The position numbers were made by a program, and so were the translations under genes. This document shows, in pieces, positions 8,580 to 9,394 of a stretch of DNA of 29,075 nucleotides (position 1 is its first letter; each line of letters starts with the position of its first letter). The stretch comes from a virus (lineage: Duplodnaviria > Heunggongvirae > Uroviricota > Caudoviricetes), in IMG/VR virus record IMGVR_UViG_2541047746_000007. The stretch is one strand, 5' to 3'. The notes beneath the pieces were generated by a model that ran no database searches, was not told the DNA's origin, and saw nothing but the letters and a program-made list of their open reading frames with translations.

Positions 8580-9394
8580 GTATGGAGCTGATGGTTAAAG
8601 CGATGAAAATTCGAGTGGGTAATCCATTGCGAAAACTGGTTCTGATCAAGCTGGCTGATAATGCCAGCGATCAGGGTGAGTGCTGGCCCAGCTACCAGCA
8701 TATTGCTGACCAGTGCGAGATTAGCAAACGTTCTGTGATGAATCATATTGCGGCCCTTTGTGATTCCGGGCTGGTAAAAAAAGTCACCCGGAAAGGTGAA
8801 AAAGGTAACTCAAGTAATATCTATCTCCTTCATCTTGATGGTGCAGGAGATTCACTAGGGGGTAGTGCAAATAATTCACTATCTGGTGCAGCAAATTCAC
8901 CAGGTAGTGCAGGAGTTGCACCAGGGGGTGGTGCAGGAGATTCACCCAGAACCAGTCACTCTTTTGAACCAGTCAAAGAACCAGTCAATGAACCAATAGC
9001 TGTTGGTGCATCTGCTGATGAGTCTGTGCGAGTTCGTTCAAACCGACCGGAATACTCTCCGGAGTTTGAGCAGGCATGGCTGGCATACCCCAAACGTGCT
9101 GGTGGCAATTCAAAATCTGCAGCCTTCAAAGCCTGGAAAGCCCGTTTGAATGAGGGGGTAAAACCCGAAACCATGCTGGAAGGTGTGAAACGCTACGCGG
9201 GCTGGGTATCTGCGATGGGTAACAGCGGCACACAATTTGTGAAACAGGCTGTCACGTTCTTTGGTCCGGATCGTCATTTCGAAGAATCCTGGGAAGTTCC
9301 TGCGGTATCTGCAGCCAGACGCGAGGACCCGTACTTCAAAGCCAGTTACGACAACGTGGACTACAGCCAGATCCCGGCAGGATTCAGGGGATAA
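8576..9394 (+). CDS. Replication initiator (lambda O-like replisome organiser) with internal origin iterons
   Basis: ATG at 8576 with RBS GGAGGT. N-terminal HTH/replisome-organiser-like region, then a G/S/A-rich linker encoded by five direct DNA repeats, then a C-terminal domain. Confidence 0.7.
   Translation: MSMELMVKAMKIRVGNPLRKLVLIKLADNASDQGECWPSYQHIADQCEISKRSVMNHIAALCDSGLVKKVTRKGEKGNSSNIYLLHLDGAGDSLGGSANNSLSGAANSPGSAGVAPGGGAGDSPRTSHSFEPVKEPVNEPIAVGASADESVRVRSNRPEYSPEFEQAWLAYPKRAGGNSKSAAFKAWKARLNEGVKPETMLEGVKRYAGWVSAMGNSGTQFVKQAVTFFGPDRHFEESWEVPAVSAARREDPYFKASYDNVDYSQIPAGFRG
8840..8946. repeat. Five 16-20-bp iterons (consensus GGTRGTGCARRANNTTCAC), candidate phage origin of replication
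   Basis: Repeats at 8840, 8861, 8885, 8903 and 8927; the first and last share a 16-nt perfect match (GGTGCAGGAGATTCAC). They lie inside the O-like gene, as lambda ori does. Confidence 0.65.

What the first reader, a model, noticed from the sequence alone, without database searches (positions are those of the whole stretch)
8840..8946. Five iterons embedded in the O-like initiator gene mark the probable phage replication origin
Direct repeats of GGTRGTGCARRANNTTCAC at roughly 18-24-bp spacing encode a G/S/A-rich linker within the initiator, the same ori-inside-O arrangement as lambda. No helicase-loader (P/DnaC-like) gene is recognisable downstream, so the initiator may recruit host DnaC/DnaB directly.
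Basis: partly seen in the sequence, partly recalled or inferred. Interest (0 to 1): 0.35.

Follow-up and report, generated by a model that had tools for sequence, protein, structure and literature searches.

The report
Phage replication origin inside initiator gene
Five 19-bp binding-site repeats, followed by a DNA element that is nearly invariant across relatives, lie inside a prophage's replication-initiator gene and almost certainly form its replication origin; this is a familiar lambda-like layout in a widespread but unstudied initiator family that has no helicase loader of its own.

Summary
Five copies of GTGCA-N5-TTCAC (one with a mismatch) lie at 8841-8945, spaced 24/21/21/24 bp. Extended, each is a 19-bp dyad, TRGTGMA-N5-TKCACYA. 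They sit in the disordered linker-coding part of a 272-aa initiator gene (8576-9394) that has an N-terminal winged helix and an uncharacterised C-terminal domain.

Eighty homologous loci from many gammaproteobacterial genera show DNA-level selection. The arrays have 4-7 copies in 66 of 80 loci. In 51 of 80 loci they are read in more than one reading frame, and some copies are inverted. The last copy sits a fixed 18 nt before a second element. Iteron type tracks the recognition helix.

It consists of GAACCAGTCA decamers (8949-8999). Codon identity there is 98.7% at conserved residues, against 41% in the N-domain. It always follows this N-domain and marks the joint where at least 8 different C-terminal domains are swapped.

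There is no classical AT-rich region, no DnaA box and no helicase or loader gene in the prophage. Phage SfV carries this module as its only annotated replication gene. Relatives with the same C-domain usually carry a DnaC-like gene next door, so use of host DnaB/DnaC is the likeliest route, but it is inferred. This is a new member of a known kind and of moderate interest.

The parts
8576..9394 (+). Initiator gene (272 aa), the same protein family as SfV orf39 and ST64B sb42. Its start overlaps the stop of ORF 8343-8579.
   Evidence: ORF list. PHROG 270 'replication initiation protein', E 1.5e-88. Pfam HTH_36, 43.5 bits. 98.5% identical to SfV orf39.
8576..8833 (+). Coding region for the N-terminal winged-helix DNA-binding domain (aa 1-86). 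The recognition helix lies at about aa 51-63 and the wing at aa 67-85.
   Evidence: AlphaFold2 model with pLDDT 72-91 and the element order H-H-H-H-E-E. Foldseek finds only generic winged-helix matches, including the DnaD N-domain 2v79.
8798..8835 (.). Stretch of about 70% A+T on the 5' side of the iterons. It holds the least stable 30-mer of 8300-9700 and is one candidate for the unwinding region. It also encodes the wing.
   Evidence: Nearest-neighbour stability profile: dG -32.5 against a mean of -41.2 (8798-8827); the 30-mer 8806-8835 is at the 96.5th percentile of the window.
8839..8857 (.). Iteron 1, TGGTGCAGGAGATTCACTA
8863..8881 (.). Iteron 2, TAGTGCAAATAATTCACTA
8884..8902 (.). Iteron 3, TGGTGCAGCAAATTCACCA
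8905..8923 (.). Iteron 4, TAGTGCAGGAGTTGCACCA. Its right half-site is TGCAC.
8929..8947 (.). Iteron 5, TGGTGCAGGAGATTCACCC. Its core starts exactly 18 nt before the first decamer.
8948..8999 (+). Near-invariant element: direct decamers GAACCAGTCA at 8949-8958, 8966-8975 and 8978-8987, plus a degenerate copy GAACCAATAG at 8990-8999, around a T-tract (CTCTTTT). The top strand is A+C-rich. It is the candidate unwinding or helicase-entry site and also the module-exchange joint.
   Evidence: Codon identity at conserved residues is 98.7%, against 41% in the N-domain. The first decamer is read as RTSH and the later ones as EPV, so two frames are used within this one gene. 114 of 114 evaluable exact copies in viral contigs follow this N-domain. 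A+T is 0.10-0.11 above the locus mean in 79 loci. It is unstructured as ssDNA.
9044..9310 (+). Coding region for the C-terminal domain (aa ~157-245; motif F..AW..YPKRAGGN ... FFGPDRHFEESW). This is the presumed helicase or loader recruitment domain. It has no Pfam family and no solved relative.
   Evidence: Helices at aa 162-217 with pLDDT about 70-79. Alignments. No Pfam or PDB match. Usually followed by a DnaC-like gene in relatives.
9311..9391 (+). C-terminal tail ending in ...DYSQIPAGFRG. The same terminal motif IPxGFRG occurs on initiators with unrelated N-domains and C-domains.
8343..8579 (+). Small upstream ORF (78 aa, PHROG 1153, function unknown) that overlaps the initiator start. It is not a loader.
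9397..9885 (+). yfdN-like PerC-family gene immediately downstream of the initiator. It occupies the position where relatives carry a loader. It is not a loader by any profile.

Best explanation
The 8839-8999 segment is the replication origin of this SfV/ST64B/CPS-53-type lambdoid prophage. It is embedded in the linker-coding middle of its own initiator gene.

Proposed mechanism:
1. The initiator is made from the early rightward operon. Dimers of its N-terminal winged helix bind the five 19-bp dyad iterons (TRGTGMA-N5-TKCACYA). The 21/24-bp spacing places them two helical turns apart, on one face of the DNA, so they can build a lambda 'O-some'-like complex.
2. This complex destabilises a neighbouring stretch. 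The most likely target is the invariant, strand-asymmetric decamer array (GAACCAGTCA, three full copies plus one degenerate) that begins exactly 18 nt after the start of the last iteron core. The 70% A+T stretch on the other side is the alternative.
3. The C-terminal domain and its IPAGFRG tail bring in the replicative helicase. The phage encodes no helicase or loader, so this must be host DnaB, most probably delivered as DnaB-DnaC.

Shown here: the repeats exist, they are selected as DNA, they change together with the recognition helix, they keep a fixed register with the decamer element, and phage loader genes are absent. Inferred: binding, the unwinding site, and the route of helicase recruitment.
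For: - Clustering far beyond chance.
- In 80 diverse homologous loci, 315 of the 372 GTG-N9-CAC sites found in 406 kb lie in the roughly 130-nt linkers. Spacing is 21-24 bp, and 68 of 80 loci have 3-7 copies (66 of them 4-7).
- In 51 of 80 loci the iterons are read in more than one reading frame. Inverted copies occur (GTGAATCTCCTGCAC is the reverse complement of GTGCAGGAGATTCAC), which a peptide repeat cannot explain.
- The last iteron lies 18 nt from the decamer in 67 of 69 loci.
- Iteron type tracks the recognition helix and wing. ..RSVMNHI goes with GTGMA/TKCAC..MRHI with GTGAC or GTGAT/GTCAC..RTTAINHI with GTGTAA/TTACAC, and ..STV(R/K)xHI plus an NR-wing with TGTAGGC or TGCCG types.
- N-domain and iterons are inherited together, while the C-terminal part is exchanged right after the decamer element.
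- Decamer element: 527 of 534 conserved residues use the identical codon, against 1381 of 3343 in the N-domain. It is kept through frame changes and small indels, and it is always linked to this N-domain.
- The linker is predicted to be disordered, so it tolerates coding constraints imposed by the DNA.
- Copy number varies from 4 to 7 among near-identical relatives, in 21-bp steps.
- No loader or helicase in the window, in the matching YDC107 prophage region, in the complete SfV genome or in a 44.6-kb circular copy.
- The same C-domain is followed by a DnaC-like gene in 14 contexts. The DnaC of phage 75/02 is 51% identical to E. coli DnaC.
- Precedent: origin iterons inside the initiator gene in lambda, P22 and L (PMC7466680, PMC8022706).
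Against: - There is no biochemical or genetic evidence for binding or for origin activity. Everything rests on comparative inference.
- There is no classical AT-rich unwinding region. The decamer array is only about 60% A+T.
- There is no DnaA box within 8300-9500.
- The covariation table is not corrected for shared ancestry.
- The codon-identity test located the element by DNA match, which favours conservation somewhat.
- The C-domain has no recognisable family or solved relative. Its partners in relatives are not uniform: a primase-helicase in SaltyDalty and U8, a different 258-aa protein in others, and nothing detected in Vibrio phage D160. The DnaC route is therefore only the commonest association.
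- This particular prophage carries an ISL3 insertion and may not be inducible.
Confidence: 0.75

Rival explanations
1. The dyad repeats are genuine initiator-binding sites, but they serve mainly as an internal operator, roadblock or copy-control ('handcuffing') array that regulates initiator expression. The origin proper lies elsewhere in the early region.
For: Each repeat is a dyad, the form that dimeric Rep proteins use on operators in iteron plasmids (general knowledge of the pPS10, F and R6K systems). There is no classical AT-rich region or DnaA box next to the array. The array sits inside the transcribed gene, so bound protein could block transcription.
Against: No other repeat cluster or AT-rich block was found in 8300-9700. 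The array keeps a fixed 18-nt register with a second conserved cis-element, as expected for an origin and not for an operator. The same position holds the proven origin in lambda and the proposed origin repeats in P22 and L (PMC7466680, PMC8022706). An autoregulatory role would not exclude origin function.
Confidence: 0.1
2. The repeats are only a by-product of a low-complexity Gly/Ser/Ala linker that expanded by slippage. They have no cis-acting role.
For: They encode a G/S/A/P-rich segment predicted to be disordered. Copy number varies among close relatives.
Against: In 51 of 80 loci the same DNA motif is read in two frames, giving unrelated peptides (GAGDS against VVQEIH). Some copies are inverted. 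The GTG and CAC half-sites and the flanking T/A are kept while the peptide changes. Spacing stays at two helical turns.
Confidence: 0.03
3. The invariant decamer element is conserved because it is a recombination joint that lets mosaic phages swap C-terminal modules, or because the peptide PRTSHSFEPV is functionally essential. It is not conserved because it acts in replication.
For: At least 8 unrelated C-terminal domains begin right after it, and chimeras switch partner exactly there. The peptide motif is also well conserved.
Against: Synonymous sites are almost frozen (98.7%) in loci from hosts as distant as Pseudomonas, Shewanella and Xenorhabdus, whose N-domains share only 64-78% nucleotide identity with the window. 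That is too old for recent exchange. In Shewanella and Aliivibrio relatives the decamers persist while frame, spacing and peptide change, for example HPEPVTLEPV and RTSHRTSQLEPV. Within this one gene the decamer is read in two frames. A functionally frozen stretch would become a recombination joint as a side effect.
Confidence: 0.07
4. The downstream PerC-family protein YfdN (9397-9885) or the 78-aa upstream ORF (8343-8579) is an unrecognised helicase adaptor, so the phage is not truly loader-less.
For: Both flank the initiator closely; the upstream ORF overlaps its start and yfdN begins 3 nt after its stop. yfdN travels with the IPAGFRG tail behind three different initiator types. Its N-terminal half resembles a winged helix (PHROG 1687).
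Against: Profiles assign yfdN to the PerC/ANR transcription regulators, and the small ORF to a family of unknown function. Neither has an ATPase or loader signature. Phage 606R7 has the same C-domain and tail with neither yfdN nor DnaC annotated in the 2.5 kb downstream.
Confidence: 0.08

Closest known systems
Bacteriophage lambda ori-lambda within gene O (also the Stx phages 933W and P27)
   Same: The origin lies in the middle of the initiator gene, in the part that codes the flexible linker between an N-terminal origin-binding domain and a C-terminal recruitment domain. There are four to six ~19-bp iterons with internal dyad symmetry. Copy number varies between relatives and changes the protein length. 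Specificity resides in the N-terminal half, and hybrids exchange the C-terminal half (PMC7466680; general knowledge of lambda O).
   Different: There is no sequence homology to O, since PF04492 does not match. There is no strongly AT-rich region to the right of the iterons; an invariant array of GAACCAGTCA decamers at 60% A+T lies there instead. There is no P-like partner gene.
P22 gene 18 and phage L gene 18 origins
   Same: These are distantly related or unrelated initiators of lambdoid phages that each carry their own repeats inside the coding region. The repeats were proposed as origins by sequence inspection (PMC8022706).
   Different: Those phages encode a DnaB-type helicase (gene 12) next to the initiator, and this module encodes none. 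The repeat sequences are unrelated, for example TGTCCAACGGA in L.
Relatives with the same N-domain and origin cassette but another C-terminal half: the 'O' genes of Stx phage 24B, Salmonella phages SI8 and S107, and Klebsiella phage ST15-VIM1phi2.1
   Same: The winged helix is homologous (47-53% identity over the aligned N-terminal stretch, up to aa 186). Phage-specific dyad repeats lie at the same position and are followed by the same AGAACC(A/T)(G/A)TCACTCTTTTGAACCAGTC element.
   Different: The iteron sequences differ, for example GGGGCAGGAGCTGCCCC in 24B. The C-terminal domains differ, and a phage primase-helicase or a second replication protein is encoded immediately downstream.
Iteron plasmids (pSC101, F, R6K, RK2, pPS10)
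   Same: A Rep protein with a winged-helix fold binds in-phase repeats next to an unwinding element. Short 12/13-mer direct repeats in the unwinding region can be bound as ssDNA by the Rep protein (PMC10602881, PMC4980987). The host DnaB-DnaC is used.
   Different: Plasmid iterons are asymmetric, bound by monomers and located outside the rep gene. DnaA boxes are normally present. Here the repeats are dyads inside the gene, no DnaA box was found and there is no Rep_3 match.

Membership tests
Lambda O family (Pfam Phage_rep_O, PF04492) | Sequence match of the N-terminal origin-binding domain to PF04492 | tested here: not met
   Pfam scan at E<=0.01 returned only HTH_36, DnaD_N (weak), B-block_TFIIIC and HTH_20.
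Lambda-type origin architecture (ori inside the initiator gene) | Three or more ~19-bp dyad iterons in helical phase, located in the linker-coding middle of the initiator gene | tested here: met
   Five 19-bp dyads spaced 21/24 bp at 8839-8947. They lie within aa 88-124, at the N-domain boundary and in the disordered segment aa 91-156.
Lambda-type origin architecture (ori inside the initiator gene) | Strongly A+T-rich unwinding region directly beside the iterons | tested here: not met
   The 3' flank is 60% A+T and the 5' flank 70%. There is no block of 80% or more.
Lambda-type origin architecture (ori inside the initiator gene) | Dedicated helicase-delivery gene (P, DnaC-like or DnaB-like) next to the initiator | tested here: not met
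   The neighbours are Ash-family, PHROG 1153, PerC, Dam, a LexA-DNA-binding-domain protein and RusA. tblastn of the window with DnaC, DnaB and primase-helicase references found nothing. The matching YDC107 prophage region and the SfV genome have none annotated.
Lambda-type origin architecture (ori inside the initiator gene) | Initiator binds the iterons, and the fragment replicates autonomously | not testable with these tools
   Only indirect support is available: covariation of the recognition helix with iteron type and co-inheritance of N-domain and iterons.
HTH_36 winged-helix proteins (PF13730) | Profile match above the gathering score | tested here: met
   43.5 bits against a cut-off of 25, over aa 17-67. 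The winged-helix fold is predicted with pLDDT 72-91.
PHROG 270 'replication initiation protein' | Profile match over most of the protein | tested here: met
   E 1.5e-88, aa 3-271. The name is an annotation, not a tested function.
DnaD-like primosomal proteins (DnaD_N, PF21984, plus the C-terminal DnaB_2 domain) | Matches to both the DnaD N-terminal and C-terminal domains | tested here: inconclusive
   DnaD_N scores 23.2 bits, below the cut-off of 27. Foldseek to 2v79 gives E 0.02, among many generic winged helices. The C-domain has no DnaB_2 match or any other Pfam match. The 'primosomal protein I/DnaD' labels in some phage records are therefore not supported. blastp against E. coli DnaT gave no hit.
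Iteron-plasmid Rep origins | DnaA box(es) beside the iterons | tested here: not met
   No TTWTNCACA site within 8300-9500. The four sites in the window lie elsewhere and number about what chance predicts.

The most novel reading that the evidence does not exclude
The invariant GAACCAGTCA decamer array, and not an AT-rich block, is the unwinding and helicase-entry element of a very large family of gammaproteobacterial phage origins. On this reading it is recognised, probably as single-stranded DNA, by the invariant face of the winged-helix N-domain (aa 1-48) and not by the variable recognition helix. Because it is frozen at the DNA level, it also acts as the universal joint at which phages plug in alternative helicase-recruitment domains: DnaC-linked, primase-helicase-linked or, as here, host-dependent with an IPxGFRG tail.
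Probability: 0.3. Interest if true: 0.6.

Novelty: new member of a known kind. Interest (0 to 1): 0.4.

Why it matters
This module is common. Part of 8300-9900 matches 2729 of 5426 complete E. coli genomes. The module is carried by SfV, ST64B, mEp460 and many Stx2c-converting phages. More than 5,600 protein clusters match the initiator. Even so, I found no description of its origin in the searchable literature.

Knowing the origin and its specificity determinants gives three things:
- A testable map of replication for Stx2c and serotype-converting phages.
- A natural series of matched initiator-iteron pairs for studying winged-helix DNA recognition.
- A case of a lambdoid replicon that works without its own helicase loader.

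The frozen decamer element is a concrete candidate for a sequence-defined unwinding site that is not AT-rich.

Tried and rejected
- Classical AT-rich unwinding element: none was found. Composition and nearest-neighbour stability profiles show only modest A+T enrichment on both flanks.
- DnaA boxes: none near the array.
- Sigma-70 promoter inside the gene: none. One weak terminator-like site on the minus strand at 8784-8799 is at chance level.
- Known RNA families: the only hit over the iterons is a chance-level mir-875 match (E 0.1, 22 bits against 84).
- Identity of the C-terminal domain: no match by Pfam at E<=10 on 11 diverse members, by profile search of PDB sequences, or by NCBIfam. blastp against E. 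coli DnaT and DnaC found nothing.
- Fold search with the full-length model returned only generic winged-helix matches to the N-domain. A separate model of the C-domain could not be built from diverse homologues, because only window and the search for homologous proteins sequences may be submitted.
- Natural 'minimal replicon': the plasmid collection held only phage-sized (about 25-54 kb) or larger records with this gene, so there was no small plasmid that would prove origin function.
- Literature: the Eru-type papers on Stx phage replication regions do not mention iterons or replication origins. Searches for the motif strings found only unrelated primer sequences.
- The extra GTG-N9-CAC site at 8082-8096 was judged to be chance. 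Nine sites lie outside the array in the window, against about 7 expected.
- A specific link between the IPxGFRG tail and host-like DnaC genes was considered but is not established. It holds for 75/02, L014 and L018. However, Xenorhabdus initiators with other tails also sit beside host-like DnaC genes.
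Full report
**Context.** The window is a lambdoid prophage of E. coli. Region 8300-9900 is 100% identical to strain YDC107 and 97-99% identical to phages 2H10, SfV, Ayreon, mEp460 and a series of Stx2c-converting phages. The early-right gene order is:
- a cI-like S24 repressor (5957-6631, minus strand);
- a YdaS-type Cro;
- a CII/CP76-like protein;
- an Ash-family ORF;
- a 78-aa ORF (8343-8579);
- the initiator (8576-9394);
- a PerC-family gene (yfdN-like, 9397-9885);
- Dam;
- a protein consisting of a LexA DNA-binding domain only;
- RusA.

The initiator matches PHROG 270 'replication initiation protein' (E 1.5e-88) and Pfam HTH_36. It does not match lambda O's Phage_rep_O family.

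**The observation.** GTGCA-N5-TTCAC occurs five times between 8841 and 8945, one copy with a mismatch. With up to one mismatch the whole window has 10 matches, against 2.5 expected, and none of 100 shuffles reached that number. Spacing is 24, 21, 21 and 24 bp. A logo from 210 distinct homologous sites extends the unit to a 19-bp imperfect palindrome, TRGTGMA-N5-TKCACYA. This places the window's iterons at 8839-8857, 8863-8881, 8884-8902, 8905-8923 and 8929-8947. They encode a Gly/Ser/Ala-rich stretch. It lies in a segment (aa 91-156) that AlphaFold2 predicts as disordered, between a confident winged helix (aa 1-86, pLDDT 72-91) and a small helical C-terminal domain (helices at aa 162-217, pLDDT about 70-79).

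**Are the repeats selected as DNA?** I collected 80 loci encoding relatives of the N-domain, one genome per species. They come from Pseudomonas, Enterobacter, Xenorhabdus, Photorhabdus, Providencia, Proteus, Erwinia, Aeromonas, Shewanella, Aliivibrio, Marinomonas, Avibacterium and others. I added phage examples.
- Of 372 GTG-N9-CAC sites in 406 kb, 315 lie in the roughly 130-nt linker segments.
- 68 of 80 loci have 3-7 copies (66 of them 4-7), spaced 21-24 bp.
- In 51 of 80 loci the copies of one array are read in two reading frames, with spacings of 23 then 22 bp. The same DNA then encodes GAGDS in one copy and VVQEIH in the next.
- Some copies are inverted: GTGAATCTCCTGCAC is the reverse complement of GTGCAGGAGATTCAC.

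A peptide repeat cannot behave this way, so the slippage-only explanation is rejected. Eleven loci and several phages carry other dyads at the same place, such as CTGTAGGC-N5-GCCTACAG, TGCCG...GGCA, GGGGCAG-GAG-CTGCCCC and GTGTAA-AAA-TTACAC.

**Covariation with the protein.** Sorting loci by iteron type also sorts the recognition helix and wing:
- ..(K/R)RSV(M/I)NHI.. goes with GTGMA/TKCAC.
- N56R (..MRHI..) goes with GTGAC or GTGAT/GTCAC, both in Erwinia/Izhakiella and in the otherwise divergent Vibrio/Aliivibrio proteins.
- ..RTTAINHI.. goes with GTGTAA/TTACAC.
- ..S(T/A)V(R/K)xHI.. plus an 'NR' wing goes with the types that lack GTG-N9-CAC.

This is what a cognate protein-site pair predicts, although the table is not corrected for shared ancestry. 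Chimeric proteins in the database combine a 24B-type or Klebsiella-type N-domain, with its own repeats, and the window's C-terminal half. The switch falls right after the repeats.

Immediately 3' of the iterons lies AGAACCAGTCACTCTTTTGAACCAGTCAAAGAACCAGTCAATGAACCAATAG (8948-8999). It contains direct GAACCAGTCA decamers at 8949, 8966 and 8978, plus a degenerate copy at 8990 (and direct reading). The evidence that it is selected as DNA is as follows.
- In 66 non-redundant loci, residues identical to the window use the identical codon in 527 of 534 cases (98.7%) across the ten-codon core. The figure in the N-domain is 1381 of 3343 (41%). The element was located by DNA match, so this is slightly biased. 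However, 79 of the 80 loci plus the window itself have a decamer with at most 2 mismatches in the searched interval.
- The first decamer is read as R-T-S-H and the next ones as E-P-V, so two frames are used within this one gene.
- Shewanella and Aliivibrio relatives keep the decamers while changing frame, spacing and peptide.
- The distance from the start of the last iteron core to the first decamer is 18 nt in 67 of 69 loci.
- All 114 evaluable exact copies of a 26-mer from the element in viral contigs lie directly downstream of this N-domain.
- The element averages 59-60% A+T, 0.10-0.11 above the locus mean, in 79 loci.
- It is strand-asymmetric, with A>T and C>G on the top strand.
- Neither strand folds better than shuffled sequences (z +0.5 and +0.9).
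- Downstream of it, at least eight unrelated C-terminal domains occur in different loci.

I read it as the most likely unwinding or helicase-entry site of the origin, which has also become the joint for module exchange. This is inference. The 70% A+T stretch at 8798-8835 is the alternative unwinding site. Two other initiator types, in mEp460_4F5 and PPyecE_EH1910, show the same layout with their own repeats (seen by eye in mEp460_4F5) followed by tandem 12-mers TACAGAGAWTAC. This suggests a general plan.

**Helicase loading.** There is no helicase, primase or loader among the neighbours, anywhere in the window by tblastn with five DnaC-like, DnaB-like and primase-helicase references, or in the annotated YDC107 prophage region that matches the window. 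The complete genome of phage SfV has orf39 as its only annotated replication protein. A 44.6-kb circular E. coli record carries the same module and no loader. I know SfV from the literature as a functional temperate phage; this was not verified here. If so, host DnaB must be used.

The window's C-domain (F..AW..YPKRAGGN...FFGPDRHFEESW) has no Pfam family and no solved relative. In relatives it is most often followed by a DnaC-like gene, with or without a DnaB-like helicase. Examples are 75/02, PhiR49_2, PPyecE, BcepIL02, and Phytobacter, Kosakonia, Pseudomonas and Shewanella prophages, 14 contexts in all. It also occurs beside a primase-helicase (SaltyDalty, U8) and beside nothing recognisable (606R7, Vibrio phage D160). 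The 75/02 DnaC is 51% identical to E. coli DnaC over its full length. Delivery by host DnaC is therefore the likeliest route, and I put it at about 0.5.

The extreme C-terminus...IPAGFRG, recurs on initiators with four other N-domains and on a second type of C-domain. It looks like a portable docking peptide, but its partner is unknown. No DnaA box lies near the origin.

**Comparison with known systems.** The layout matches the proven ori-lambda inside gene O, and the repeats within gene 18 of P22 and L that have been proposed as origins (PMC7466680, PMC8022706). Shared features are dyad iterons in the linker-coding region, specificity in the N-terminal half, an exchangeable C-terminal half, and copy-number variation that lengthens the protein. 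Here there are 4-7 copies among near-identical relatives, and protein clusters range from 242 to 302 aa.

The differences are:
- the initiator is not homologous to O;
- there is no strongly AT-rich block;
- a sequence-invariant decamer array takes its place;
- there is no partner gene.

I found no paper in the searchable library that describes this origin. That library lacks most subscription-journal papers, including the SfV, ST64B and HK620 genome papers.

**Verdict.** This is a new, sequence-defined member of a known kind of origin. It occurs in a very common prophage module, and the conserved decamer element and the loader-less state deserve experimental attention. Interest is moderate (0.4).

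Noticed in passing
window 7874-8062 (+): Two Rfam families score above their gathering thresholds inside the ORF annotated as Ash-family (7514-8350): isrK (7874-7950, 55 bits) and C4 antisense RNA (7975-8062, 83 bits). The long 'Ash' ORF may therefore be partly an RNA locus of the P1/P7 C4 and IsrK type that controls an antirepressor.
   Followed up: partly
window 11312-13198: An insertion of about 1.9 kb relative to the otherwise colinear YDC107 prophage. It carries a DUF1706 gene (11412-11930) and an ISL3-family transposase (11949-13169), just after rusA.
   Followed up: partly
window 8865-8999 (+), alternative frame: A 44-aa ORF reads the iterons and decamers in another frame (..VVQEIHPEPVTLLNQ..). 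This is the frame actually used for some iterons in Pseudomonas and Enterobacter relatives. Two homologues (L031, L061) shift into it and terminate early, giving proteins with only the N-domain. Whether such truncated forms have a role, for example as repressors of initiation, is unknown.
   Followed up: partly
window 9371-9391; L010, L014, L018, L172, L173, L174: The C-terminal heptapeptide IP(A/P)GFRG ends initiators that have five different N-terminal domains and two different C-domains. Other initiators in the family end in acidic-plus-aromatic tips (..DPEDPLI, ..EDF, ..NFNW) that recall the SSB C-terminal tail. These are possibly docking peptides for a common partner.
   Followed up: partly
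L172 (mEp460_4F5) 1622-2602; L006 (PPyecE_EH1910) 2497-3390; L173 (569R4) 1661-2602: Unrelated initiator types also carry repeats in their linker-coding region, for example GGTCAAAGTGA-like and CCGTCAAAATCTGAC-like units. In two of them the repeats are followed by tandem 12-mers TACAGAGAWTAC, which parallels the window's decamer array.
   Followed up: no
window 8082-8096: GTGAAGGTAATTCAC is a symmetric GTG-N9-CAC site about 750 bp upstream of the array, inside the Ash/C4 region. It is probably chance, since 9 such sites lie outside the array against about 7 expected.
   Followed up: partly
window 10535-10861 (+): A 108-aa protein consists only of a LexA DNA-binding domain, without the S24 peptidase domain. 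It is conserved in this module in SfV, mEp460 and others. Its function is unknown. It could occupy LexA boxes without being cleavable.
   Followed up: no
L175 (NZ_CP148393.1) 16010-16861: A 44.6-kb circular E. coli record annotated as a plasmid is a complete phage genome with the same replication module. It carries a ParA-like ATPase (AAA_31/CbiA) beside its integrase, which hints at a phage-plasmid lifestyle that uses this origin.
   Followed up: partly
L003 (PhiR49_2) 3001-6102 compared with window 8576-9394: An initiator 83% identical over aa 1-250, with the same iterons, has a different last ~25 residues and is followed by DnaC-like and DnaB-like genes. Loader-less and loader-carrying versions of the same origin cassette therefore coexist in E. 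coli phages, and the switch point lies in the C-terminal tail.
   Followed up: partly
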